A stretch of DNA of 64,000 nucleotides from an uncultured bacterium (GTDB lineage Bacteria; Babelota; Babeliae; Babelales; Babelaceae): positions 56,642 through 120,641 of the forward strand of contig CAWGPQ010000008.1 in assembly GCA_963824495.1 (NCBI GenBank), read 5' to 3'. This document shows positions 3,005 through 23,287 of the stretch, in pieces. The translations under genes were made by a program, and so were the position numbers. The notes under the pieces were generated by a model that made no database searches, was not told the origin of the DNA, and saw only the letters and a list, made by a program, of their open reading frames with translations. Positions within the stretch are counted from its first letter, which is position 1. Each line of letters opens with the position of its first letter.

Positions 3005-6000
3005 CTAGAGCTCTAGGCGCATTGTCAGCGCATAGCGCTCAACTGCTTGCACAAGCTCAGGTGTAAACGCTATCTTAGTGCGTGACGATAGTTTCAGCTT
3101 TTTGTTATGCTCAGAAAAGAGCAAGAAGAACGAACTTGGACCACCTTTAAGAGCATTTTTAATATCATGTAATGCCTGGTCTGTAATAGTTTCAGGCAGC
3201 TGAAGCGATATCGATGCTATTCCTCTGCCCTCCCGTATTACATGATCAATGGGTATAAGCTCTTGTGCTTTAATTTTACAAAGAGCAGCCGACTCTGGAT
3301 CTACGAAGCCTTTAATAAGAAAAATCGTGTGCTCATCGAGCAATGTGCCGAGTGAGCTCAATACTTTAGGAAAAATTATAACTTCTGCCTTGCTTGTGCT
3401 ATCTTCAATGGCCATAAAAGCCATTTTATCACCTTTTTTTGTCGTAATTATTTTAGACTGCTTGACAATACCACAACAAATAACTAATCCAGTAACCGAT
3501 GCTGCTTCACGTAAAGATGTTATGTTGAGCCAAGCAAAATACCGGGTATACGTATCAAGTGGTTGTTCGCTAATATACAAGCCAATTACCTCCTTCTCTT
3601 TTTCAAGCCTAAGATTAGGCGGCCATTCTGCTCGTTCTGCAAAATAATATCGTTCTTCAGGTTGTTTTCCATCAGATTCTTGTGATAGTTCAAACAGTCC
3701 CATTTGGCCAGTAAGAGCTGCTCGTTTTTTTTCAAGAGCTCTATCCATAATCTTAGAAAGCTCGTCATGCTTTTGTGCCCGGTTACCTGGAAGCTGATCA
3801 AGTGCTCCAGCGTAAATCAAACTCTCAATAACACGCTTATTACAGGTACGTAAATCTACACGACTACAAAAGCCAAGCAGATCAGTAAAAACCCCATTTT
3901 TTTCACGTTCTTGTAATATATCATCAAGTGCGGCAGTACCCACGTTTTTGATACCGTGTAGACCAAAGCGGAGATTACCATTAACAACGCTAAATATTAC
4001 ATCGGAAAGGTTAATATCGGGTGGAAGCACCGTAAGCCGCATATCTTTGGCTTCTTTAATATAGAAGGCCATCTTCTCAGCATCCGCTGCTTCAAGCGAA
4101 ATTAAACACGCCATAAATTCAGCAGGATAGTTTGCTTTAAGATACGCTGTCTGATAGGCAATTAAGGCATAAGCAGCAGAATGTGACTTATTAAAGCCAT
4201 AGCCGGCAAAATATGCCATAAGATCAAACAGCTCTCCTGCTTTTTTTTCATTAAAATTACGCGTACATGCTCGCTCGACAAAAAGTGCTTTTTGTTCTGC
4301 CATTACATCAGCTTTTTTCTTGCCCATTGCGCGACGCAAAATATCGGATTCTCCTAGGCTATAGCCTGCTATAAGCGATGCGATTTTCATAACCTGCTCT
4401 TGGTATACGATAACACCATAGGTCTCTTGCAAGACACTTTCAAGCTCTGGTAAAAGATACGAAATTTTTTGCCGACCATGTCGCCGTTCAATAAAATCAT
4501 CGACCATCCCTGATCCAAGTGGTCCTGGTCGATACAGTGCGTTAACAGCAATAATATCTTCAAATGTCGATGGTTGTAATCTGCGTAAAACTTCTTTTAA
4601 CCCATCAGATTCTAATTGAAAGACACCCGATGTATCGCCTCTACCCAAGAGTGCAAATGTTATAGCGTCATCGAGAGGCAACATTGTTATATCAATCACT
4701 ACTCCATGATTCTTTGCCATGAGATCAACACTACGCTGAATCAGTGTTAAATTCTTCAGCCCCAAGAAATCCATCTTAAGAAAGCCTAGGCTTTCAAGCT
4801 CTGTCATGGCGTATTGAGTAACCAAATCAGTAGATTTAGGGGGAACATATACAGGAAGCATATCGCTAATAGGCTCGGGAGAAATTACAATACCAGCTGC
4901 ATGTTTAGATGCATGACGGGTAATTCCTTCAAGCCTGAGTGCCAAATCAAATAATTTACCCACTTGAGGGTTATTGGTAATAAGCTCTTTTAATTTTGGT
5001 TCTTGCTCAAGAGCTTCTTTAAGAGTAATTTTAAGCTGATCAGGAATCAAATCAGTTAGGGCATTTGAGTCTTCAAAAGGAAATCCCAAAACCCGCGCAA
5101 CATCTTTAATGACGCCTTTAGCCATCATCGTACCAAAGGTAATAATTTGGCAGACTTTATCGTGACCATAGCGTTGACGTACATACTGTATTACTTTATC
5201 GCGACCTTCAATGCAAAAATCAATATCAATATCAGGCATGCTGATACGTTCAGGATTTAAGAACCGCTCAAAAAGCAAATTGTACTTAAGTGGATCAATA
5301 TCCGTTATCTGTAACGCCCATGCAACTAATGACCCTGCTGCTGAGCCTCTACCCGGACCTACAGGTATCCGGTTATTCCGTGCCCATTGAATAAAGTCAC
5401 CAACTACTAAAAAGTATCCAATAAACCCCATCTTGATAATAAGTTCTATTTCAAGCTTTAACCGATCTCTATAACTGTGCTCAAGCTTGCTATCAATACG
5501 ACCAGCTTGTAGAAGCTTATCTAAACCCTGCTGACAAAGCTCAGCAAAATAGCTCTCGTGAGTACAGCCCTGAGGTATATCAAATTGGGGAAAAAAAAGC
5601 TTGCCAGTCTCAAACTGAAAGTTACATCTATCGGCAATTTCACCACTTGTCCATACAGCATCAGGGTGATCTTTAAATATTTCGAGCATTTCTTCTGCTG
5701 TTCTGATATGCACACGGCAGTTACCAAATGTAAAACGATCTGGATCGGTGAGCTTGTGATGCGTCTGAATTGACAGCATAACCTCATGAGCTTCGCGATC
5801 TTCAGGGTTAACATAGTGAGAGTCACCGGTAGCAACACACTTAATATTCTTGTGCTCGCTTAGAGCAAAAAGTTTTTCGTTTAATATTTTTTGATCAGCT
5901 TGATCGGGCGGCTGTACTTCAAGATAAAATCTTTCGCGACCAAATACCCGTAAATACCACTCGAGCCATCGCTCAGCCTCTTGTGTATTATTGTGCATGA

Positions 6001-6433
6001 GCAGCTGAGGTATATGCCCACCTAAACAAGCGCTTGTTACGATAAGCCCTTCGGCGTGAGCTTCAAGCATACGGTAATCGATACGAGGCTTAAAATAAAA
6101 GCCGTCAGTATAAGCAAATGCAATAAGCTTGCATAAGTTTTTATAGCCTTGTGCGTTTTCTACCAAGATAATCAGGTGATAATATTTATTCTCAGCATCT
6201 TTAACACGCGCATCTTCAGTAAGATATGCTTCCATACCCAGCACAGGCTTAATACCCGCTTTTTTTGCTTGCTGAAAAAACTTAACAGCACCGAATATAT
6301 TACCATGATCAGTGATAGCAAGTGCTTTCATCTGATGCTGCTTGCCAAAAGCAATTAAGCGATCAAGCGTAATCGCTCCGTCGAGTAACGAAAAGTCAGT
6401 ATGTAAATGTAAGTTAGTAAAATGCTGTGACAT
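3005..6433 (-). CDS. dnaE: DNA polymerase III alpha subunit
   Basis: About 1140 aa. N-terminal PHP motif LHLHTDFSLLDGA and a full-length DnaE-like sequence (GPGRGSAAGSLVAWAL, NKSHSAAYA). ATG at 6433 is preferred over the TTG at 6454 given by the ORF track. Confidence 0.95.
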   Translation of the reverse strand: MSQHFTNLHLHTDFSLLDGAITLDRLIAFGKQHQMKALAITDHGNIFGAVKFFQQAKKAGIKPVLGMEAYLTEDARVKDAENKYYHLIILVENAQGYKNLCKLIAFAYTDGFYFKPRIDYRMLEAHAEGLIVTSACLGGHIPQLLMHNNTQEAERWLEWYLRVFGRERFYLEVQPPDQADQKILNEKLFALSEHKNIKCVATGDSHYVNPEDREAHEVMLSIQTHHKLTDPDRFTFGNCRVHIRTAEEMLEIFKDHPDAVWTSGEIADRCNFQFETGKLFFPQFDIPQGCTHESYFAELCQQGLDKLLQAGRIDSKLEHSYRDRLKLEIELIIKMGFIGYFLVVGDFIQWARNNRIPVGPGRGSAAGSLVAWALQITDIDPLKYNLLFERFLNPERISMPDIDIDFCIEGRDKVIQYVRQRYGHDKVCQIITFGTMMAKGVIKDVARVLGFPFEDSNALTDLIPDQLKITLKEALEQEPKLKELITNNPQVGKLFDLALRLEGITRHASKHAAGIVISPEPISDMLPVYVPPKSTDLVTQYAMTELESLGFLKMDFLGLKNLTLIQRSVDLMAKNHGVVIDITMLPLDDAITFALLGRGDTSGVFQLESDGLKEVLRRLQPSTFEDIIAVNALYRPGPLGSGMVDDFIERRHGRQKISYLLPELESVLQETYGVIVYQEQVMKIASLIAGYSLGESDILRRAMGKKKADVMAEQKALFVERACTRNFNEKKAGELFDLMAYFAGYGFNKSHSAAYALIAYQTAYLKANYPAEFMACLISLEAADAEKMAFYIKEAKDMRLTVLPPDINLSDVIFSVVNGNLRFGLHGIKNVGTAALDDILQEREKNGVFTDLLGFCSRVDLRTCNKRVIESLIYAGALDQLPGNRAQKHDELSKIMDRALEKKRAALTGQMGLFELSQESDGKQPEERYYFAERAEWPPNLRLEKEKEVIGLYISEQPLDTYTRYFAWLNITSLREAASVTGLVICCGIVKQSKIITTKKGDKMAFMAIEDSTSKAEVIIFPKVLSSLGTLLDEHTIFLIKGFVDPESAALCKIKAQELIPIDHVIREGRGIASISLQLPETITDQALHDIKNALKGGPSSFFLLFSEHNKKLKLSSRTKIAFTPELVQAVERYALTMRLEL

Positions 6434-6652
6434 GAAAATCCGGTAATTGCTCAAATAGAGTGAAAGTTCTTACGGTAATGTTACGTTTAGTATAGCACAA
6501 AAATGTACTCGAGATTGCTTATACACGCACGTCCGCCAGGACATCAAATAAATTTTATTTTTCTTTTTATCGACAAATAAAATTATACTTGTTAAGCTTA
6601 CATTATTAGTGTTGCCATTGAATAATATAATTTATAATAAGGCGTATGTTTT

Positions 6653-7324
6653 ATGCATTCAAATCGAACAACTACTCTACGCACTATATACACCACTCAA
6701 CAAGCTCTGACTATGACAACAGGAATAGTACTCTTTACATTGAGTTCGTACGGGCAAAGTTCAGTTTCTGAGGCTCAATATGAGCAATGGAAAAAAGATA
6801 AGCAAGAGAGATGGCATACCCATGCTATCACGAATGCTTTAAAACAGCAGGAAGATTTGCTGCTTGATGTATCTTATGGCCTTGAGCGCTCTAAAAGTAT
6901 TCTAGGCTTTACTGAAGCAATTTGTGCCTATAATTACCTACGAGAACTACACACCAAAGACCCTCTGCTTCCTCAAGTGGCTACAACCGTACGTTCTATC
7001 GATACAGATTGGTTGAGCAGAGTTGATTATCTTATATGGCAAGACCTCAAGCAAGAATATTGGAAATATAAAGATATTACTACTTTCTCGAAGAAACAGC
7101 TTAATTTAATATTTGACATACTAACTGCCCAACGCTTTTTGCAAGAAGATCCAAAAAATAGCACGCAACAAAGAAATATTCTTTACGCTTATAATTTCTT
7201 ACGTGAACTCTTTGGTCTATCTACCAGCACTTGCTTTTCTGCTCTTGATGCAACCTGGCTTCAAGCCGTATACAAAAAACTTGCTTATCGTGCTCTTATT
7301 AGAAGAATACTACAACCCGTTTAA
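6653..7324 (+). CDS. Hypothetical secreted/membrane protein, YN.LREL repeat family
   Basis: Hydrophobic N-terminal segment. Two internal copies of AYN(Y/F)LREL...D(T/A)(D/T)WL. Paralogous to 11913-12548. Confidence 0.6.
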   Translation: MHSNRTTTLRTIYTTQQALTMTTGIVLFTLSSYGQSSVSEAQYEQWKKDKQERWHTHAITNALKQQEDLLLDVSYGLERSKSILGFTEAICAYNYLRELHTKDPLLPQVATTVRSIDTDWLSRVDYLIWQDLKQEYWKYKDITTFSKKQLNLIFDILTAQRFLQEDPKNSTQQRNILYAYNFLRELFGLSTSTCFSALDATWLQAVYKKLAYRALIRRILQPV

Positions 7325-7574
7325 GGTAACACAGCCTATAACACCTGCCGTTAAGCCAACATCTTAAGAACAAAAGTAACTAGTAAAAGTTTTTAACACC
7401 GTGTGACCCTGAGTATACCATAATTCAGAATGCTCGAGACAGCTTATACCCTGGTATTGCCTAATTATTAAAATTTTCTTAATTTTAAACATTTATTGAC
7501 AATTGTAAGTAAAAATCAATAATCTATTAAATATAATAGTTTATTAATAATATTAATATTAGAAATCATAGACT

Positions 7575-10232
7575 ATGATCATAATATTCCACCGTGCTTA
7601 TAAGCTCATTGTGCTTATGACATGCGCAATCATACTTATGAGTGAGATATCAAGTTTTGCTGTTATGGTACCTGTTGGCAAGGGAGCCTATACAACTGAG
7701 CTTCCTCAAGGCCGACAAGGACCATCTAATAGTGCTAATCAGCCGGTAAAACCAAAGGTTTCTTCTCAGTTTAACAAACTGCCTATTACGCATAAGTGGT
7801 GGTCATCACTTATCTGGCAATTTGATCCACAAAACCCTTGGAGTGAAAATCTCTTTGCTTATCCCCTTGGTTTTAAGGCATCTGCTCAAGGCGTAGGACT
7901 TGGTTATACTACCGTTCCAGCCATAACTCCTGATATACGTGTTACCGATGGGCATGTCGTCCAAGAATACCACTATGAGTATGCACAAGATCTCACGGTT
8001 TCTGTTGTGGGATTACAGGCGCAAAAAACGGTTGTTGATGATTATTCAGATTGGGCCTTCACTGCACTTTGGCAAGGACAAACAACAAGCTTGCGCATGA
8101 CCACTGGCCAAGGGTTGCCTTTTGCTTATTTTACTGTACAAGGCACGCCGATTACTATTACCCCGAGCACTACCCCTATTGTATGGTATAACAAAAACGG
8201 TACGCTTGGTGTTACCGTTAATGGTCATACTTACGGAATTTTTGGGCCATCGGGCTCACAATGGTCGGGTACAACGGCATTAGAGTCAACACTCAATGGT
8301 AAAGATTATTTTTCTATTGCTGCTTTGCCTGATGCTACCGTTGAAACACTCGAGTTCTATCGTACACATGCTTATGCTTTCGTTACCAATACGAGCATAA
8401 GCTGGAATTATGACGAGCAGACGGGGCAGCTTCAAACTACCTATAGCGTAGAGACAACACCTCAGGAGTCAGGGTCAGGCTTAGTTAACCGTCCCTTACT
8501 TGGCCTCTTTAAGCATCAATGGCTTCATACGACTGTGCCATTTACTTCTTATAGATATATTAGCCCTCGCGGTGTGATGCATGTTATCGATGCAACAGAG
8601 TTTACAACAACTATGAAGTTTGCTGGTATCCTCCCTGCATTGCCAGGCGTTATACATGAAGGCGAAAATGGTTATAGTGAAGAAACACTTTTTGAGTATA
8701 TCGATCAAATCTATCAACAGTCACCTGAACAACGTTGGCCACATACTGATACCTATTGGACAGGTAAAGACCTAGGGCATATAGCTATGCTTGTCCCAAT
8801 AGCAGACCAACTTAAGTATACGCAAGCACGGGATCTGTTTCTTCGGGAAATTAAAGAAAAACTTGAGAGCTGGTTTAAGGGAGATCCTGAGCACCTGTTC
8901 TACTATGACACTACCTGGAAGACTCTTATAGGATATCCAGCAAGCTATGGAAGCGATACACAGCTTAATGACCATCATTTTCATTATGGCTACTTCATTA
9001 TGGCAGCTGCTATAGTTGCCCTCTATGATCCAACATGGGCGGACGCATGGGGTGGCATGGTTAACTTACTGATCTCAGATGCTAACAATCCTGACAGAAC
9101 AAATAAGCAGTTTCCCTTTTTGCGTCAATTTAACGTATATGCTGGTCATAATTGGGCAAATGGTCCAAGCTTATTTGCGGCAGGAAATAATCAAGAATCA
9201 TCATCAGAAGCACTCAACTTTGCTAGTGCCGTTATACTGTGGGGTACTGCTACCGGCAACATGCTTATGCGTGATGCTGGTATTTATTTGTATACTACTG
9301 AACGAACTGCTGTTGAAAATTATTGGTTTGATATCGATACAGCTGTCTTTCCTGCTGGATTTACCAAGCCAACGTTAGGAATACTATGGGGCAATGGTGG
9401 TGCCTACTCAACGTGGTTTGGCGGTACTGTTGAGCAACTTCATGGTATAAATTTTCTTCCTATTACGGGTGGCTCTCTCTATCTCGGTTATTATCCAGAC
9501 TATTTACGTATTAACCAAAATTATATGAAAAATAATAGCGATGCTAATGACGTATGGAAAGATATTAATGCCAGCATCATGGCATATCATGACCCCAAAG
9601 CTGCTATAGAAACTATCACAAGCCCGTATACCCCTGAAGACGGTGAAACAAAAGCTCATACCTATCATTGGGTATATAATATAAGCAAACTAGGTAAACC
9701 TGAGACAGCCACCTATGCTCTAGGTTTAGCAACTGCTACAACGTTCTTGAACGGGACTACCCGAACGTACGTAGCCTTTAACCCAACGCCAAAGCCATTA
9801 ACTGTTGTATTCTCCGATGGAGTTATGTTGCGCAATATCCAGCCACACACAACTCAAACTGAAACTCGAGCGATTACGGGCGCAATTGCTCTGCCTCAGG
9901 TTCCACTTAACCCACAAGATACCAGCCGTGTTTTTGGCAAGCAGTTGGAAGCAGAAGCACAAGCGGCACAATTTAAACACTCAGTACAACAAGTGAGTCC
10001 AAGCACATTGAGAATTACTTTTACACCTGCTATTCCAAGCAAATTTGTTGATATTCACTACACTATTAATAAAGGCGGCCAACTTAACTATCGCATGAAC
10101 CAAAAGGCACATGACTGGACTATCACCGTGCCTAATATACAACCTAGCAATATAATTAATTATTCATTTACGTATGAAAAAAATGGCCCAGCATTTAATA
10201 GTCCACTATTTACGTTCACAGCAGCTGCTTAA
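7575..10232 (+). CDS. Glycoside hydrolase family 81 endo-beta-1,3-glucanase with C-terminal CBM-like domain
   Basis: 885 aa with a signal-like leader. GH81 hallmarks LNDHHFHYGYFIMAAA, YAGHNWANGP and NNQESSSEALNF (two Glu four residues apart). The C-terminal ~90 aa (FVDIHYTINKGGQLNYRMNQKAHDWTITV...NYSFTYEKNG) looks like a beta-sandwich carbohydrate-binding module, possibly CBM56-like. Confidence 0.8.
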   Translation: MIIIFHRAYKLIVLMTCAIILMSEISSFAVMVPVGKGAYTTELPQGRQGPSNSANQPVKPKVSSQFNKLPITHKWWSSLIWQFDPQNPWSENLFAYPLGFKASAQGVGLGYTTVPAITPDIRVTDGHVVQEYHYEYAQDLTVSVVGLQAQKTVVDDYSDWAFTALWQGQTTSLRMTTGQGLPFAYFTVQGTPITITPSTTPIVWYNKNGTLGVTVNGHTYGIFGPSGSQWSGTTALESTLNGKDYFSIAALPDATVETLEFYRTHAYAFVTNTSISWNYDEQTGQLQTTYSVETTPQESGSGLVNRPLLGLFKHQWLHTTVPFTSYRYISPRGVMHVIDATEFTTTMKFAGILPALPGVIHEGENGYSEETLFEYIDQIYQQSPEQRWPHTDTYWTGKDLGHIAMLVPIADQLKYTQARDLFLREIKEKLESWFKGDPEHLFYYDTTWKTLIGYPASYGSDTQLNDHHFHYGYFIMAAAIVALYDPTWADAWGGMVNLLISDANNPDRTNKQFPFLRQFNVYAGHNWANGPSLFAAGNNQESSSEALNFASAVILWGTATGNMLMRDAGIYLYTTERTAVENYWFDIDTAVFPAGFTKPTLGILWGNGGAYSTWFGGTVEQLHGINFLPITGGSLYLGYYPDYLRINQNYMKNNSDANDVWKDINASIMAYHDPKAAIETITSPYTPEDGETKAHTYHWVYNISKLGKPETATYALGLATATTFLNGTTRTYVAFNPTPKPLTVVFSDGVMLRNIQPHTTQTETRAITGAIALPQVPLNPQDTSRVFGKQLEAEAQAAQFKHSVQQVSPSTLRITFTPAIPSKFVDIHYTINKGGQLNYRMNQKAHDWTITVPNIQPSNIINYSFTYEKNGPAFNSPLFTFTAAA

Positions 10233-15573: not shown

Positions 15574-17730
15574 ATGGCAAAACAAACATGATTTTCTCTT
15601 CTGGCTTTCATAAGCCTCATCGGCATTAGTTTGGGCCAGCAAACGGGCCTAGCACCTATAACTGAAGTATCGGTACCAATAACATCGCATGAGAATGGTG
15701 TACAGTCTACAACACTTTTAGATGATCCTCCTAAAACTCAGTTAAATACAGAAAAATTTGAAGAAGAGCCTTTTGAGGCTGTCCGTCGCGATAATCAAGC
15801 AACGGTTAGTTAACTGCTCAATCAAGGAGCTGACCCTAATGCACGCGATAATCTAGGGCGCACACCTTTAGATGTAGCTATGCTTTACTATAAAGATATT
15901 GATCCTATGGTTAAGTTACTTTTGGATAAAGGTGCAAACGTTACCGTTCAGGACAATGAAGGCGATACACCGCTGCACTATGCTCTTATGAATCGGAGAA
16001 CGCAAAGCACGTTACGCTTGTTAGAAGCAGGAGCACCCATTAATATAGCAAATAAGTCCGAGATTACTCCGTTAGACATAGGATTAGAGTATGGGGGGCA
16101 AATCGCTGATTTATTGAGATCGTACGCAAAAAAGCAGGGAATAACCATACCAGAAAAAACCGTTATTGATCAAATAGCATCAAGAGCAAAAAAACACAGA
16201 CTGTTGCTTATTTAAGCATCCCATCGCTCAAGGAGCGAGTGCAAAAAAAATTTGGGCACTATATCGTGCAGTATAAGAACCTTATTCTCAAGGTAATTGA
16301 TCAAGAGCAAGCATTAAGTGATTACGATGTAGTCTATCATGGCCAAAAGATCCAGGTCAAATTCGTCTATGATGTCCTTAAAGAAATATTCAGCTGGCTG
16401 GACAACCAAGCAAGAGCGAAAGACTTTGAGTACCTAAGAATACCGGGAGCAATTTTTGAGTTTAAGCAAGCCCTGACAGATCTGCTCATACATGATTTTG
16501 GAGATATAACGGAAATTTCACCGGAGGATAAGGAATTTTTAGATCTTGACCCGCTCATAAGCAAAATACTACTCACTACCAACATATCGCTCTTTGGCAA
16601 TAGTGGTGATTTTATTAAAGAAAGTACTTTTTATTTTTATTTTCTTCAAAATCATAGCATACACTGGCTCAAAGTTGTAGAAATCCTAGAAATTCTCAAG
16701 CACATTGGAATTAATCAAGACTTCCTCAATCGGCTAGATGACTTTTACAGAACGGAATTTAAAGAATTAGTAGCCAAGCAACCAGATGACAGTGGTAACC
16801 TTGTACAAATTTTTATACCCAAGAATATACTAAATGAGTATCTCTATCTCTGTGGAGTTCACGGTGTGCCTCTAAAGACCGCCACTATTAATGGCCACCC
16901 AACCAATGTACGTGAATTAGGCGCAGAAAAATTTATAGAAATTTACAGAAATAACCCAACTGCTCTTGATCCTGAAGAGATGGATCAAGTTCAAGCACGA
17001 TTATTCTTGACGAACACTTTTTTTCTTAATCCGGCCAGTGGTGTAAAGATCTATACGTATAATACACTTGACCCTCGGGCTGTTGCTGAATACACAACAA
17101 AGCTACGCCAGCTTATTAATCAGATAATGACCGATTGGGCAACAAAACCAACAATACTCAGTAGAGCTCTTATTGTAACAAGCCAAAAAGATTTTGAACA
17201 TAAAGTAAATATTTTAATTAAGATTGCACAAAATCTTCTTAAGCCATCATTACCGTCAGAACCATCAGATCAAGAAACAGTTAAAAAAGCACAGGAAACG
17301 TATGCAAAATTATCTGCTCTTATAGAAGTATATGGAAAGAATTATAACCAGAATACAGAACTTCTGAAGCAAGCAGAGACTACTCTTGCAAGTTTGTCAT
17401 CTAAGTTCTTGTTGCGAAGTCAGGTTTTCCCTCCATTAGAGGGTAAGAAGCTACCAGCGACCTCATCGTTTCAAACATACCTCAATCAACTCAAGCAGCT
17501 TGCCCATCAAATGCGTGATTATATAGGTCTCAATCAACATTAACTTTCCAAGCCCACGATCACCACTTAGCAAGTAAGCTTGCTACACATACGCCAAAAG
17601 CTCAGGTCAGCACGAGATATAAAGCTCTCTGTAACCAGCTCCCCGCAGCCACGGCTATACAAAGAAAGGCAAAAGAGATAGCACGGGAGAAATTTAAAAG
17701 TAAATTTAATGATGACCCTGAAGAAGCGTA
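15574..17730 (+). pseudogene. Decayed tandem paralogue of the ANK + unknown-domain gene at 17959-20268
   Basis: ATG at 15574 with GGAGAAAGAG upstream. In-frame TGA at 15589-15591 and in-frame TAA at 15811-15813. Frameshift at the A7 run 16188-16194 (KKTQTVAYLSIPSL continues in another frame and matches KKTQTVAYLSVPSL of the intact copy). The conserved tail ...NQLPAATAIQRKAKEIAREKFKSKFNDDPEEA (ends 17730) is out of frame with ORF 16239-17543. Confidence 0.8.
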
Positions 17731-17755
17731 ACCATATATATACCATGAGACAAGC

Positions 17756-17804
17756 TCAGAGTATATCAAATCTTCGTGAAGCTATGCTGTTAAACCATCC
17801 TAAG
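17756..17804 (-). other. Duplicated 49-nt fragment of the 3' end of the SEDS (rodA/ftsW) gene
   Basis: tcagagtatatcaaatcttcgtgaagctatgctgttaaaccatcctaag is near-identical to 20301-20349, the stop and last codons of the intact gene. It marks the right edge of the duplicated unit. Confidence 0.8.
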
Positions 17805-17958: not shown

Positions 17959-20268
17959 ATGCTAAGACAAACGATTGTTTTACTTTTAGCCATAACGAGT
18001 TTGAGTGATATTCGTCATGCAATAGCTGCCGATGATCAATCAACCCCAATCCCCGATAATAGAGATAAAGCAGTACTTGCCCTTAGTCAACAGCTTGTGG
18101 GAGCAATGCGTGGACAAAATGAATGTATGGCTATTCCCTTGATTGCCAAGGGAGCTGATCCTTTAGTAAAAACTGTATTTGGTGATGCTTATAGCATAGC
18201 TTTAGAGAAACATAACACTAACTTAATAGACTTAATTGATGCAGCAATTCGACTCAAGAAAGCGCAAGGTAAAGAATTGTCTGAACTACTTGAGAAATGG
18301 GGTAATAGTGGTTACTGGTTAGCTCGATTAGCCAGAACATATGCTACAGAGCACGGGATAGCCTTACCTCTACCTAGTAAAGATACTCTTGATAAACAAT
18401 TATTCCGGGCAGTTGAGGATGGAAATGAATCTTCAGCAGCTTCTTTACTTGCTCAAGGAGCCAACCCTAACGCACGCGATAACGAGGGACAGACGCCCCT
18501 TCATATAGCCACGTTGTGTAATAAGGATGATAGTACACTCGTGAAGCTTCTTTTGGATAAAGGGGCAGTGGTCGATGCTCAGGACGCTAAAGGCAGGACT
18601 CCTTTATATTATGCTATTCATTATTGGAATAAAAAAATAGCTCAGCTTTTATTGGAAGCAGGGGCTCGCGTCGATGTGACAGATAAAGCAGGAGTAACAC
18701 CACTAGAGCTAGTACTCAAGCAAAGTCATGAATTAGGTCCCTTAAAACAAAGTTATGGATTGGCTTCCTTAGTTACACCGTATGCTCAAAAGCAAGCAGT
18801 AGCTTTACCTATCCCTATTATTGATCAAATAGCATCAAAAGAAAAGAAGACCCAGACCGTTGCATACTTAAGTGTCCCTTCGCTTAAACAGCTTGTGCAA
18901 ACCAAACTTGGAGTAAAAGTAATAGGATATAAAAATATTCTTCTAAAAGTAATTGATCAAGAGCAAAAGTTAAGTGATTACGATGTAGCCTACCATGCCC
19001 AAAAGATTGATTTTCAATTTGTTTATGATGTTCTAAAAGAACTATTTAGCTGGTTGGATAATCAAGCAAATATACGAGAATTTGAATACTTAAGAATACC
19101 CGGGGCTGCTTTTGCATTTAAACAAGCCATAGCAGATATTATTAAAAAGGATTTTGGGGATATAGCTGAACTTTCGCAAGAAGACAGGAGAGCTCTAGAC
19201 TTTAATCCGGCTATAAGCAAAATATTACTTGCTGCCAATTTGTCACTTTTTGGCAATACTGGTAAAAATTTCAAGGAATCTACCTTTTACTTCTATTTTC
19301 TTGATAATCGTAGCGTCAGAGACATCAATGTTATAGAGTTATTACAGGATATTTTTGAACGAATTGGCATGAGCTATAATGACTTAAAACAGCTCGATGA
19401 TTTCTACAAGACAGAGTTTACGAAACTATTGGCTCAGAAAATTGATAGAAGTGGCAATCTTATACAAATCTTTATTCCCAAGAATAAAGTAAATGATTAT
19501 CTGTACCTATCTGGAGTTCATGGTGTACCTCTTCAGACTATTACTATTAACGGCCAATCAACTAATGTACATGAACTTGGCGCAGAAAAATTTATAGAAA
19601 TTTATAGAAATAACCCAGCAGCTCTCGATCCTGAAGAGATGGATCAAATTCAGGCACGGTTATTCTTGACTAATACTTTTCTTCTTAATCCAGCTAGTGG
19701 TATAAAGATCTATACGTATAATACACTCGACCCCAACCTAATAGCTGAGTATAAAAGAAAGCTTCACAACCTTGTGGGCCAGCTCATGATTGATTGGGCT
19801 ACCACTAAGGGTATCATGAGCAAACAACTTGCCATCACCAATCAGCAAGAATTCCAGCAAAAAGCCAATCTGCTAGTTAATAGTGCACAAAAGCTACTTC
19901 AGCAATGGGTAACACCAGAAGATAAGCAAAAGGCACAGGAGGTATTTGATCGCCTTTCAGCACTTATCGAAGTATATGGTCAAAAATATGGTACCGCTGA
20001 ACTTATCACAAGAGCAACTGATAGCCTGCATGACGTAGCAAGTAAGTTTGCTCTGCATATGCCAACTTTTACGCCACAGGCTCGGATCAGCACGAGACTT
20101 TACGCACTAGCGCTTAAGAATGCATCACCAACTGATGTTCAAAAGCATAATCACCTTAAAGCTCTCTATAACCAGCTCCCCACAGCCACGGCTATACAAA
20201 GAAAGGCAAAAGAGATAGCGCGGGAGAAATTTAAAAGTAAATTTAATGATGACCCTGAAGAAGCATAA
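17959..20268 (+). CDS. Secreted protein: N-terminal region + 3-4 ANK repeats + ~450-aa domain of unknown function
   Basis: Signal-like MLRQTIVLLLAITSLSDIRHAIA. ANK repeats (GQTPLHIATL..., GRTPLYYAIH..., GVTPLELVL). The C-terminal half (YHAQKIDFQFVYDVL...LSLFGN...ESTFYFYFL...IQIFIPKN...GVHGVP...QARLFLTNTF) matches nothing I recognise. Confidence 0.85.
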   Translation: MLRQTIVLLLAITSLSDIRHAIAADDQSTPIPDNRDKAVLALSQQLVGAMRGQNECMAIPLIAKGADPLVKTVFGDAYSIALEKHNTNLIDLIDAAIRLKKAQGKELSELLEKWGNSGYWLARLARTYATEHGIALPLPSKDTLDKQLFRAVEDGNESSAASLLAQGANPNARDNEGQTPLHIATLCNKDDSTLVKLLLDKGAVVDAQDAKGRTPLYYAIHYWNKKIAQLLLEAGARVDVTDKAGVTPLELVLKQSHELGPLKQSYGLASLVTPYAQKQAVALPIPIIDQIASKEKKTQTVAYLSVPSLKQLVQTKLGVKVIGYKNILLKVIDQEQKLSDYDVAYHAQKIDFQFVYDVLKELFSWLDNQANIREFEYLRIPGAAFAFKQAIADIIKKDFGDIAELSQEDRRALDFNPAISKILLAANLSLFGNTGKNFKESTFYFYFLDNRSVRDINVIELLQDIFERIGMSYNDLKQLDDFYKTEFTKLLAQKIDRSGNLIQIFIPKNKVNDYLYLSGVHGVPLQTITINGQSTNVHELGAEKFIEIYRNNPAALDPEEMDQIQARLFLTNTFLLNPASGIKIYTYNTLDPNLIAEYKRKLHNLVGQLMIDWATTKGIMSKQLAITNQQEFQQKANLLVNSAQKLLQQWVTPEDKQKAQEVFDRLSALIEVYGQKYGTAELITRATDSLHDVASKFALHMPTFTPQARISTRLYALALKNASPTDVQKHNHLKALYNQLPTATAIQRKAKEIAREKFKSKFNDDPEEA

Positions 20269-20270
20269 CC

Positions 20271-20287
20271 ATATATATATATATATA
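20271..20287. repeat. (AT)n microsatellite between convergent genes
   Basis: 17-nt atatatatatatatata. The equivalent site in the duplicated copy (17734-17742) has only 9 nt. Confidence 0.9.
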
Positions 20288-20300
20288 CCATGAGACAAGC

Positions 20301-21410
20301 TCAGAGCATGTCAAATCGTCGTGAAGCTATACTGTTAAACCATCCTAAGCTGGCAAACGTTATCCAAAGATTACTTACGCCATAGCTTAACAAAGGCAAC
20401 GGTATACCAACAACGGGCAAGAGTCCTGTTACCATGCCTATATTAACAATCATAGAAACTACACAATGTATAACAAGACCTGTTGCAAGCAATTGTGCGT
20501 AAAAGTTTTTAATAGTTGTTGTTACGTAAAAAAGCCGCAAAAATAACAGACTATACAAAAAGATAACCGTGAGCGCTCCTAAAAAGCCCCATTCTTCTGC
20601 CATAACTGAAAAAATAAAGTCCGTTCTACTTTCAGGCAAAAATTGAAACTTGTTCTGCGTACCCTTGAGAAATCCTTTACCAGTAAATCCACCTGAACCT
20701 ATGGCAATTTGAGATTGCTCAATTTGGTAGCGTTCTTTGCGGGAATCTCCCTCGCCAAGAAATACAGCGATTCGTTTCTTTTGATATGGCTTAAGACATG
20801 CCCACGTTAATGGTGCTGTAACTAAAAAAAGAACAAAAGACCACATAAAAAATTTCTTACCAATACCCGCTAACCACATCATAACAGCACTGGCAAAGAG
20901 AAGAATAAGAGCCGTGCCTAAATCAGGCTGCTTACGAATTAATAGCACACTACAACCAACAACAGCTAAAATAGGCACAAATGTCTTAAAAGAATAATCA
21001 ATATCCTTTTCTGTATATAAATAATACGAAAAAAACGCAGGAAAAAAGAGCTTTGTCAATTCTGATGGTTGAAATCTTATACCACTATAACTAATCCACC
21101 GTTGACCCCCCATGCCAATACTTCCCTTAACAAGTGTAAAGAGCAAAAGCACGATAATCCCAAAATAAAAAAAATATCCCCACCGCTGTAGCGTGCGGTA
21201 ATCAATAATACAGCAGGTGATATAGATACAGAGCCCGGATATAACACCAAAAAGCTGCTTTTTAAAAAACAACGAGAACATGTGCTCGGGTCTATACGTA
21301 GCGCTAAATACCAATAGAACACCAAGGCTCGAAAGCACAATTACCAGTAAAAAGCTGAGCCAGTCAAAATAACGAAGATACCGTCGATCAATAAGAAACA
21401 TATAACCCAC
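20301..21410 (-). CDS. SEDS-family peptidoglycan glycosyltransferase (RodA/FtsW)
   Basis: 369 aa, polytopic. Motifs GGQRWISYSGIRFQPSELTKL, RKQPDLGTAL and LPESRTDFIFSVMAEEWGF. Confidence 0.9.
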   Translation of the reverse strand: MGYMFLIDRRYLRYFDWLSFLLVIVLSSLGVLLVFSATYRPEHMFSLFFKKQLFGVISGLCIYITCCIIDYRTLQRWGYFFYFGIIVLLLFTLVKGSIGMGGQRWISYSGIRFQPSELTKLFFPAFFSYYLYTEKDIDYSFKTFVPILAVVGCSVLLIRKQPDLGTALILLFASAVMMWLAGIGKKFFMWSFVLFLVTAPLTWACLKPYQKKRIAVFLGEGDSRKERYQIEQSQIAIGSGGFTGKGFLKGTQNKFQFLPESRTDFIFSVMAEEWGFLGALTVIFLYSLLFLRLFYVTTTIKNFYAQLLATGLVIHCVVSMIVNIGMVTGLLPVVGIPLPLLSYGVSNLWITFASLGWFNSIASRRFDML

Positions 21411-22618: not shown

Positions 22619-23287
22619 ATGAATACGTATATTCTGGTATTAGCAATTTTTAGTAGCTTTCTGTTTAATTCGCATCAACTTGTGAGCATGCATGCTTCTA
22701 ACCCAGAGCAACTTGAGCTCAATGAGCAATTACTGAAGGCAGCAAAAGCAGGGAATAAAGATACCGTAATCTCTTTACTAGAGCAGGGTGCTGATGTTAA
22801 TCATGCTACTAACGATTATGGCCATATCGATATCGTAAGGTTACTTATAGAGCACGGTGCTCATGTTAATCATGATTTTCACCAAACTGCTCTTAAAATT
22901 GCAGCTCGAAAGGGATACATAGATATAGTTAAAATGCTTATAGAGCATGGCAAGGATGAAGCGAAGTATGATGCTCACCTAAACATTCGTAACCATCAAG
23001 CGTTAACCCCCCGGTCTCTTGCGCAAAAATATCGCAACCGCCAGGATATTATACGCATTCTTAAGCCTATGGCAGGCCAAGCACTGCTTGCTTTACTTTC
23101 AACTGAAGGTCAAGAACAACGCTTCGGTGTATTCTATACCAATAACGATACCAGTGGAACAGCACAGACTTTAGGTGTTTTACCTGACGGTATACTTCCC
23201 GCTGAAATTGCTGCCAATATTGCCCATTTCGTTGTTACTCAAAGACAACCTGAACAAGCACGATCAAACCCTAATTCCAACTCTTAG
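22619..23287 (+). CDS. Short, eroded secreted ankyrin-repeat protein with degenerate family-A tail
   Basis: Leader MNTYILVLAIFSSFLFNSHQLVS. Truncated ANK units (GHIDIVRLLIEHGAHVN, GYIDIVKMLIEHG). Tail LPAEIAANIAHFVV. Confidence 0.7.
   Translation: MNTYILVLAIFSSFLFNSHQLVSMHASNPEQLELNEQLLKAAKAGNKDTVISLLEQGADVNHATNDYGHIDIVRLLIEHGAHVNHDFHQTALKIAARKGYIDIVKMLIEHGKDEAKYDAHLNIRNHQALTPRSLAQKYRNRQDIIRILKPMAGQALLALLSTEGQEQRFGVFYTNNDTSGTAQTLGVLPDGILPAEIAANIAHFVVTQRQPEQARSNPNSNS

What the first reader, a model, noticed from the sequence alone, without database searches (positions are those of the whole stretch)
18901..20268. Uncharacterised ~450-aa domain fused to ankyrin repeats: candidate new effector domain
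The C-terminal half of 17959-20268, and its decayed paralogue ORF 16239-17543, is a well-conserved globular region. Its strongly conserved blocks are: DYDV.YH.QKI.F.FVYDVLKE.FSWLDNQA; EYLRIPGA.F.FKQA; LSLFGN.G...KESTFYFYFL; GNL(I/V)QIFIPKN; YL.GVHGVPL.T.TINGQ.TNV.ELGAEKFIEIYRNNP; and QARLFLTNTF.LNPASG.KIYTYNTLDP. I cannot match it to any enzyme or binding family. No Cys is conserved between the copies, which argues against a Cys protease. Invariant His, Tyr, Glu and Arg residues leave transferase- or hydrolase-type chemistry open. ANK repeats fused to a catalytic domain is a common layout for intracellular-bacterial effectors.
Basis: inference. Interest (0 to 1): 0.6.

Follow-up and report, generated by a model that had tools for sequence, protein, structure and literature searches.

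The report
Undescribed secreted effector domain, Dependentiae
The rear part of this exported ankyrin-repeat protein is a real, well-folded domain from a large protein family that has no database annotation and that I did not find described; among bacteria it was found only in Dependentiae (parasites of protists), two giant-virus proteins share its predicted fold, and its function is still unknown, though it looks enzyme-like.

Summary
Gene 17959-20268 (769 aa) has a signal peptide, ankyrin repeats and a C-terminal region that is 61% identical to ORF 16239-17543, which lies in a disrupted tandem copy.

- a ~310-aa core (window 18883-19815)
- a ~90-aa helical accessory module
- a lineage-specific tail

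The core matches nothing in Pfam, NCBIfam, PHROGs or PDB sequences. It is not confined to this pair. It hits 2009 protein clusters and 117 of 261 Dependentiae genomes (76 of 145 genera). Copies are often in tandem and often broken. About 86% of members have export-signal-like N-termini, and half of the long members scanned carry ankyrin repeats on either side.

With 69 sequences AlphaFold2 gives a confident model (pLDDT 88.7). Foldseek finds no solved structure like it. It does find two uncharacterised giant-virus proteins (Mimivirus LCMiAC02, Hokovirus).

About ten polar residues are 90-99% conserved, which looks enzyme-like. The Cys/Ser position is evolutionarily labile, so a Cys/Ser-His triad is not supported. 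ADP-ribosyltransferase, CE-protease and 2OG-oxygenase readings failed their tests.

The most likely reading is a Sec-exported, ankyrin-targeted host-acting enzyme of unknown chemistry. This scan noted the same family before on another genome (e1-2944983).

The parts
17959..20268 (+). Intact gene for a 769-aa protein (P0001): signal peptide, ankyrin repeats, family core domain, helical module, tail
   Evidence: ORF list and translation; Pfam
17959..18027 (+). Predicted Sec signal peptide (about residues 1-23, ...HAIA|AD)
   Evidence: Read from the sequence. Hydrophobicity maximum is 2.55 over 11 aa. No dedicated signal-peptide predictor was available.
18382..18732 (+). Ankyrin repeats (residues 142-258)
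   Evidence: Pfam Ank/Ank_2/Ank_4, E 1e-18; PDB ankyrin and DARPin matches
18883..19815 (+). Core domain of the undescribed family (P0012; P0001 residues 309-619). Near-invariant residues: E335, Y345, H346, D357, R379, N427, F431-G432-N433, Q503, P507, Y516, R567, K583, Y598
   Evidence: Profile searches; conservation over 195 representatives; AF2 model with pLDDT 88.7
19786..20058 (+). ~90-aa helical accessory module (P0001 ~610-700). It recurs before and/or after the core in other family members.
   Evidence: BLASTP of the tail against family members: P0005, P0095 and P0101 (each twice), P0098, P0107, P0113 and others
20059..20265 (+). Lineage-specific C-terminal tail
   Evidence: The only match is the remnant at 17561-17728
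15574..17731 (+). Disrupted tandem paralogue: in-frame TGA (15589-15591), in-frame TAA (15811-15813), frameshift in an A-run (16186-16194), and a tail remnant in another frame (17561-17731)
   Evidence: tblastn and three-frame translation
16239..17543 (+). Intact 434-aa ORF (P0002) inside the disrupted copy. It covers the whole core domain and helical module but has no signal peptide.
   Evidence: all family-invariant columns are kept

Best explanation
Gene 17959-20268 encodes a Sec-exported modular effector of a Dependentiae (Babeliales) bacterium, an obligate parasite of protists. The signal peptide takes it out of the cytoplasm. The ankyrin repeats dock it onto a host protein. The ~310-aa C-terminal core is the working end. 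That core belongs to a very large family that has no database annotation and that I did not find described, and its predicted alpha/beta fold has no solved relative. I think it is most likely an enzyme. Its active site would be built from the near-invariant E335, Y345, (H346), D357, R379, N427, Q503, R567 and K583. The two invariant arginines plus a lysine point to an anionic substrate or co-substrate, such as a phosphate, nucleotide or carboxylate. Shown: the domain, the family and its spread, the confident model, the lack of known relatives, the export signals, the ankyrin fusions, and the tandem turnover. Inferred: secretion into the host, the targeting role of the ankyrin repeats, catalysis, and the kind of substrate.
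For: The pair is real. The family is large: 2009 clusters at E<=1e-3 and 452 at E<=1e-30. It occurs in 117 of 261 genomes and 76 of 145 genera of the phylum, with up to 8 matches per genome, and roughly 28 of the ~150 matches listed carry in-frame stops. All 11 loci found among 185,579 species genomes are Dependentiae. 21 of 41 loci hold two or more tandem copies, and no neighbouring gene is conserved. 151 of 176 full-length members have a hydrophobic N-terminus, against 13 of 199 internal control segments. 10 of 20 long members scanned carry ankyrin repeats, either N- or C-terminal to the core; one has TPR, one an EEP phosphatase/nuclease domain and one a DUF294 nucleotidyltransferase. Ten polar residues are 91-99% conserved at ~25% mean pairwise identity. 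The AF2 model has pLDDT 88.7 and pTM 0.88. It matches two giant-virus proteins with TM 0.57-0.67, E 4e-13 and 8e-9. In Chromulinavorax, 78% of ankyrin proteins carry signal peptides and Sec export is the proposed route (PMC6561590).
Against: There is no homology to any enzyme, and no coordinates were available to show that the conserved residues form one pocket. H346 is lost in 9% of members. The Cys/Ser position is lost in 15% and changes 43 times on the tree. Two members fuse the core to other enzyme domains, where it could be the targeting part instead. A divergent member sits in a tail-fibre-like position of a contractile-tail cluster, which would suit a binding role.
Confidence: 0.5

Rival explanations
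1. The core is a non-catalytic host-binding or adaptor module. Its invariant polar residues hold the fold together or form a binding surface, and the family diversifies to bind different host targets.
For: No enzyme homology. Many conserved positions are aromatic, Pro or Gly. Large tandem, fast-turnover expansions are typical of binding-repeat effectors. The core is fused to real enzyme domains in P0120 and P0131. A divergent copy lies after baseplate genes, where tail fibres lie.
Against: Ten polar residues are kept at 91-99% across a family at ~25% identity, which is unusual for a pure binding module. The core is most often fused to binding modules (ankyrin, TPR), which suggests it is the effector end. 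Most members are the core alone behind a signal peptide.
Confidence: 0.28
2. The core is a highly divergent ADP-ribosyltransferase of the H-Y-[EDQ] clade. The 'FYH[AG]Q + helix' would be the NAD-binding His strand, F431/Y446 the aromatic position and Q503 the catalytic position.
For: The sequence pattern and its secondary-structure context (a strand ending in YH followed by a helix; an invariant Q at the start of a hydrophobic strand) resemble the motifs of this clade as I recall them from the literature. This is a lead, not a test.
Against: Foldseek of the confident model against the whole PDB, which holds many such transferases, gave no hit at E<=0.001 and none of these enzymes among the 50 matches printed of the 55 at E<=10. 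Only helices are predicted between the 'Y' and 'Q' strands, where the fold needs two strands. About 110 conserved residues follow the 'Q' strand. His is replaced in 9% of members.
Confidence: 0.07
3. The protein is a housekeeping periplasmic or envelope protein of the bacterium itself (for example cell-wall remodelling, given the neighbouring rodA), not a host-directed factor.
For: Only a Sec signal is seen. The gene lies next to rodA. The family is widespread in the phylum.
Against: Distribution is patchy: 144 of 261 genomes lack it, including 10 of 10 in one genus with several near-complete genomes. Copy number is variable, pseudogenes are frequent, there is no conserved neighbourhood, members are fused to ankyrin/TPR, and the fold is shared with giant viruses.
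Confidence: 0.08

Closest known systems
Uncharacterised giant-virus proteins A0A481Z173 (Mimivirus LCMiAC02) and A0A1V0SG32 (Hokovirus HKV1), as BFVD predicted structures
   Same: Same predicted fold over the whole core: Foldseek E 4e-13 and 8e-9, TM 0.67 and 0.57, 302-325 aligned columns. They also come from parasites of protists.
   Different: Only 17-19% identity. Their function is equally unknown. I could not fetch their sequences to check the invariant residues. They are viral, not bacterial.
Signal-peptide ankyrin-repeat effectors of Dependentiae (for example the 98 ankyrin proteins of Chromulinavorax destructans, PMC6561590)
   Same: Same phylum and same layout: a Sec signal plus ankyrin repeats, presumed to manipulate the host.
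   Different: Those are described only by their repeats. Here the repeats are joined to a distinct ~310-aa globular domain that forms its own large family.
Legionella Dot/Icm ankyrin effectors with catalytic domains (for example AnkX, ankyrin + FIC)
   Same: The layout of ankyrin repeats plus an enzyme domain. NCBIfam AnkX/AnkY/AnkG models hit only the repeat part.
   Different: All scores are far below the model cut-offs (47-57 bits against 500-1400). There is no FIC or other known catalytic domain. Export is by a Sec signal rather than type IV secretion.

Membership tests
Ankyrin repeat (Pfam PF00023/PF12796), N-terminal half only | 33-residue repeat profile above the Pfam gathering score | tested here: met
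   Ank 66.7 bits (cut-off 21.1) and Ank_2 66.2 bits, at residues 142-258
Undescribed Dependentiae / giant-virus domain family (this report) | Profile match over the ~310-aa core with the E...YH...D...R...N-x2-LFGN...Q-x3-P...Y...R...K...Y pattern | tested here: met
   Both window copies score ~464 bits against the family profile and keep all invariant columns
Undescribed Dependentiae / giant-virus domain family (this report) | Shared fold with the viral members | tested here: met
   Foldseek against BFVD: TM 0.57-0.67, probability 1.00
ADP-ribosyltransferase, H-Y-[EDQ] clade | Split beta-sheet transferase fold | tested here: not met
   None of these enzymes appears among the 50 matches printed (of 55 at E<=10), and there are no hits at E<=0.001. 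The predicted strand order does not fit.
ADP-ribosyltransferase, H-Y-[EDQ] clade | His, aromatic and Glu/Asp/Gln triad on the right strands | tested here: inconclusive
   H346 is 91%, F431 96% and Q503 99% conserved. Their placement on such a scaffold could not be checked without coordinates.
Cys/Ser-His-Asp hydrolases (papain-like, CE clan Ulp1/YopJ) | Invariant nucleophile at a helix N-terminus paired with His | tested here: not met
   At position 441: Cys 57%, Ser 28%, other 15%, with 43 state changes on the tree. Loss of His and loss of Cys/Ser never coincide. No protease fold hit.
2-oxoglutarate/Fe(II) oxygenases (weak Foldseek neighbours) | H-x-D/E...H metal triad on a jelly-roll | tested here: not met
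   Only one conserved His exists. The Foldseek hits have E 0.6-7 and TM ~0.1.
Dual-finger Rab GAPs (TBC, EspG/VirA-like) | Arg and Gln fingers on a TBC or EspG fold | tested here: not met
   Invariant R and Q residues exist, but there is no fold match to any PDB entry. GAP activity is not testable here.

The most novel reading that the evidence does not exclude
The core is a new enzyme fold with a new or unrecognised host-modifying chemistry. It would have been exchanged between Dependentiae bacteria and Mimiviridae giant viruses inside shared protist hosts, and diversified into thousands of variants as a main weapon of this phylum.
Probability: 0.3. Interest if true: 0.8.

Novelty: new variant of a known kind. 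Interest (0 to 1): 0.55.

Why it matters
Dependentiae are widespread, almost uncultured parasites of protists, and their host-manipulation toolkit is known mainly as 'ankyrin proteins of unknown function'. This domain is one of their largest unannotated families: about 2000 clusters at 50% identity, present in nearly half of the genomes. It folds confidently into something with no solved relative, and two giant-virus proteins have the same predicted fold. Finding what it does would annotate thousands of proteins at once. It could also reveal a new host-directed activity and document gene sharing between bacterial and viral parasites of the same hosts.

Tried and rejected
**Sequence libraries**
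- Pfam, NCBIfam and PHROGs scans of the window proteins found nothing in the core.
- A Pfam scan of 69 members, plus 10 of those 69 rescanned one by one, found only noise: ChrB_C in 6 members at E>=0.03, and nothing consistent.
- PDB sequence and profile searches found nothing. The only hit was a 33-residue chance match to mitoribosomal uS9m at E 0.4.

**Structure**
- The first AF2 model, built from 9 sequences, was poor (pLDDT 62) and its fold search was meaningless. It was redone with 69 sequences.
- Foldseek of the good model against the PDB gave no hit.

**Hypotheses tested and dropped**
- The ADP-ribosyltransferase, CE/papain protease, 2OG-oxygenase and dual-finger GAP ideas were dropped or downgraded.
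- The idea that Ser441 (Cys in most members) and H346 form a dyad was tested. All 17 members without His have Cys, but these represent only 6 independent events, and the independent-pairs test has no power. The link is not supported.
- A search for a conserved neighbouring gene (chaperone or immunity-type partner) in 41 loci found none.
- One locus labelled 'Pseudomonadota' seemed to show spread outside the phylum. It proved to be genome G257 of the Dependentiae set.

- Model coordinates are not exposed, so conserved residues could not be mapped in 3D.

Full report
**1. Observation**

BLASTP aligns P0001 residues 313-706 with P0002 residues 1-399 at 61% identity, E 4e-175. The quoted motif blocks are all present. 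Pfam places ankyrin repeats at P0001 residues 142-258 and finds nothing in the C-terminal half. NCBIfam hits only the repeats, far below cut-offs. phmmer against PDB sequences finds only ankyrin proteins for P0001 and nothing at all for P0002. The N-terminus (MLRQTIVLLLAITSLSDIRHAIA|AD) looks like a Sec signal peptide; this is read from the sequence and backed by a hydrophobicity score.

**2. The upstream copy**

tblastn and three-frame translation show that 15574-17731 is a broken tandem paralogue. Its disruptions are:
- an in-frame TGA at codon 6 (15589-15591)
- an in-frame TAA inside the first ankyrin repeat (15811-15813)
- a frameshift in an A-run (16186-16194)
- a rearranged 3' end, where the ORF stops at 17543 and a tail remnant continues in another frame at 17561-17731

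The stretch 17620-17804 is 91.7% identical in DNA to 20157-20349. That match runs past the stop codon of the intact gene into the 3' end of the oppositely oriented rodA.

The 434-aa ORF covers the whole core and keeps every family-invariant column. All four disruptions lie outside 16239-17435. If four events fell at random over the 2158 nt, the chance of that is about 0.04 (my own arithmetic). This is suggestive only. The ORF has no signal peptide.

**3. Organism**

The own genome is 1.33 Mb in 21 contigs and ~97% complete. Two loci that carry public titles are sequence-identical to loci of genomes in the same GTDB family as the window: 'Candidatus Dependentiae bacterium bog_1370' and 'Candidatus Babeliales bacterium TH-11nov19-95'. 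The window therefore comes from a Dependentiae (TM6) bacterium of the order Babeliales.

**4. The family**

- A word-indexed search with P0002 found 7 relatives, all unnamed and without Pfam domains.
- A profile of 9 sequences, scored against 1.84 billion cluster representatives, found 2009 proteins at E<=1e-3, 1275 at E<=1e-10 and 452 at E<=1e-30.
- A second word-indexed profile search gave 69 hits. Where a name was given it was always 'hypothetical protein', mostly from Candidatus Babeliales, and none had Pfam domains other than ankyrin.
- A six-frame search of all 261 genomes of the phylum found the domain in 117 genomes and 76 of 145 genera, with up to 8 matches per genome. By my count, roughly 28 of the ~150 matches listed have in-frame stops. 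One 10-genome genus lacks it entirely.
- The own genome has only the two copies.
- A degenerate-pattern scan of one genome for each of 185,579 prokaryote species found 11 loci. Where the record names a taxon it is Dependentiae or Babeliales, with one labelled 'Pseudomonadota'. The four ambiguous ones that I re-searched (that one and three 'uncultured bacterium' records) give the same match coordinates or scores as genomes of the phylum set. One further 'uncultured bacterium' locus (L002) was not mapped.
- On a FastTree of 195 members the two window copies are sisters (support 95), with P0005 next. This points to a lineage-specific tandem duplication.

**5.

The family core is ~310 aa (P0012, window 18883-19815, P0001 residues 309-619). 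The next ~90 residues (P0001 610-700) form a helical module. That module recurs in other members, either behind the signal peptide and before the core, after the core, or both, as in P0095 and P0101. The last ~70 residues match only the remnant of the sister copy.

**6. Features of the family that bear on function**

- **Export.** 151 of 176 full-length members have a hydrophobic N-terminal segment, against 13 of 199 internal control segments.
- **Fusions.** Of 20 long members scanned, 10 carry ankyrin repeats, either N-terminal (as here) or C-terminal to the core. One carries TPR, one an Exo_endo_phos domain and one a DUF294 nucleotidyltransferase. Three proteins carry two cores.
- **Context.** 21 of 41 loci hold two or more tandem copies, and no neighbouring gene family is shared by more than four loci, all from one genus.
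- **Conservation.** Over 195 representatives at <=50% identity, in P0001 numbering: E335 97%, Y345 98%, H346 91%, D357 93%, F375 92%, R379 99%, D414 89%, N427 99%, L430-F431-G432-N433 88-96%, E440 80-82%, F447 95%, Q503 99%, P507 99%, Y516 96%, G522 94%, P524 93%, Q565 89%, R567 98%, P578 92%, K583 87%, Y598 94%.
- **The Cys/Ser position.** Position 441 is Cys in 57%, Ser in 28% (Ser in both window copies) and something else in 15%. It changes state 43 times on the tree. His346 is lost 6 times, and never together with position 441. That residue is too labile to be a catalytic nucleophile.

**7. Structure**

With 9 sequences AF2 gave pLDDT 62. With 69 sequences it gave pLDDT 88.7 and pTM 0.88. 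The model starts with a long N-terminal helix that ends at E335. A strand ending in Y345-H346 follows, then a helix carrying D357 and a less confident loop-and-helix insert holding R379. Next come a strand ending at N427, the LFGN loop and a helix starting at E440-S441. Two long helices lead to the strand with Q503...P507, four short strands, the strands with R567 and K583, and a long C-terminal helix with Y598.

Foldseek against 350,542 PDB chains gave no hit at E<=0.001; the best was E 0.58 with TM ~0.1. Against BFVD it gave two strong hits, both uncharacterised: A0A481Z173 of Mimivirus LCMiAC02 (E 4e-13, TM 0.67) and A0A1V0SG32 of Hokovirus HKV1 (E 8e-9, TM 0.57). No AlphaFold DB library was available. 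'No known fold' therefore means no solved relative at Foldseek sensitivity.

**8. A divergent outlier**

One IMG/VR record has 55 kb and GC 30.5%, and IMG/VR classes it as a provirus. Its 679+-aa ORF holds a divergent copy of the core (E 1.5e-21 against the core profile). That copy keeps R, N-LSLFGN, E-S-T, Q...P, Y, QAR and K but lacks Y-H and D. The ORF lies directly after a gpV-like spike gene, a gp25-like baseplate wedge gene and two large ORFs, one of which has a faint baseplate-wedge match. A sheath gene lies 3-5 kb away on the same record. No Terminase_6N match was found. This position suits a tail fibre or a carried effector. It is a single case and I did not resolve it.

**9. Interpretation**

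The data fit an accessory, fast-evolving, exported family used against the host. Distribution is patchy, copies are arrayed in tandem, pseudogenes are frequent, no operon partner exists, export signals are the rule, and the core is repeatedly joined to eukaryote-type binding repeats on either side. The same fold occurs in giant viruses of protists. For Dependentiae, export of ankyrin proteins by Sec signals is the published expectation: in Chromulinavorax destructans, 78% of 98 ankyrin proteins have signal peptides (PMC6561590).

The conserved polar constellation at ~25% pairwise identity, and the fact that the core is usually the only globular part behind the signal peptide, make an enzyme the most likely reading (about 0.5). 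Two invariant arginines and a lysine hint at an anionic substrate. A binding or adaptor role remains a serious rival (about 0.28).

Specific enzyme classes that I considered failed their tests:
- ADP-ribosyltransferase of the H-Y-[EDQ] type, suggested by 'FYH[AG]Q + helix' and an invariant Q on a strand
- CE or papain-type proteases
- 2OG oxygenases
- dual-finger GAPs

**10. Comparison and novelty**

No paper in the library searches describes this family. This scan met what appears to be the same family on another genome; its note names the same two viral fold neighbours and reports no solved structure (e1-2944983). I reached those results independently before reading it.

As a kind of thing, a secreted ankyrin-plus-domain effector of an intracellular bacterium, it is familiar. 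The domain itself is new to the databases.

Noticed in passing
window 16225-16241: The intact domain-only ORF of the broken copy starts at a GTG preceded by AAGGAG with a 3-nt spacer, a Shine-Dalgarno-like sequence. This ORF escaped all four disruptions of its gene, so it might still be made as a non-exported, core-only protein.
   Followed up: partly
window 17620-17804 vs 20157-20349: The two 3' ends of the tandem copies are 91.7% identical in DNA, far above the ~61% protein identity of the rest. The match runs past the stop codon into the end of the opposite-strand rodA. This suggests recent gene conversion or marks the duplication junction.
   Followed up: partly
L043:7320-9359 (IMGVR_UViG_3300029722_000177): A divergent copy of the core lies in a 679+-aa ORF directly after spike and baseplate-wedge genes of a contractile-tail cluster. 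A sheath gene is present on the record and no Terminase_6N was found. The cluster could be a prophage or a tail-like injection system.
   Followed up: partly
L010 (CAZWTF010000002.1) 4028-8220: Three tandem family members lie in a genome assembled from a metagenome and labelled 'uncultured Pseudomonadota bacterium'. The same coordinates appear in a genome of the Dependentiae set (G257), so the public label is probably wrong.
   Followed up: yes
P0018 (7623 aa), P0016, P0032: Some family members carry two cores in one protein. One of them is a 7623-aa giant protein.
   Followed up: no
window 22619-23287: Another signal-peptide ankyrin protein (222 aa) lies two genes downstream, beyond rodA and a 316-aa ORF that I did not characterise.
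   Followed up: no
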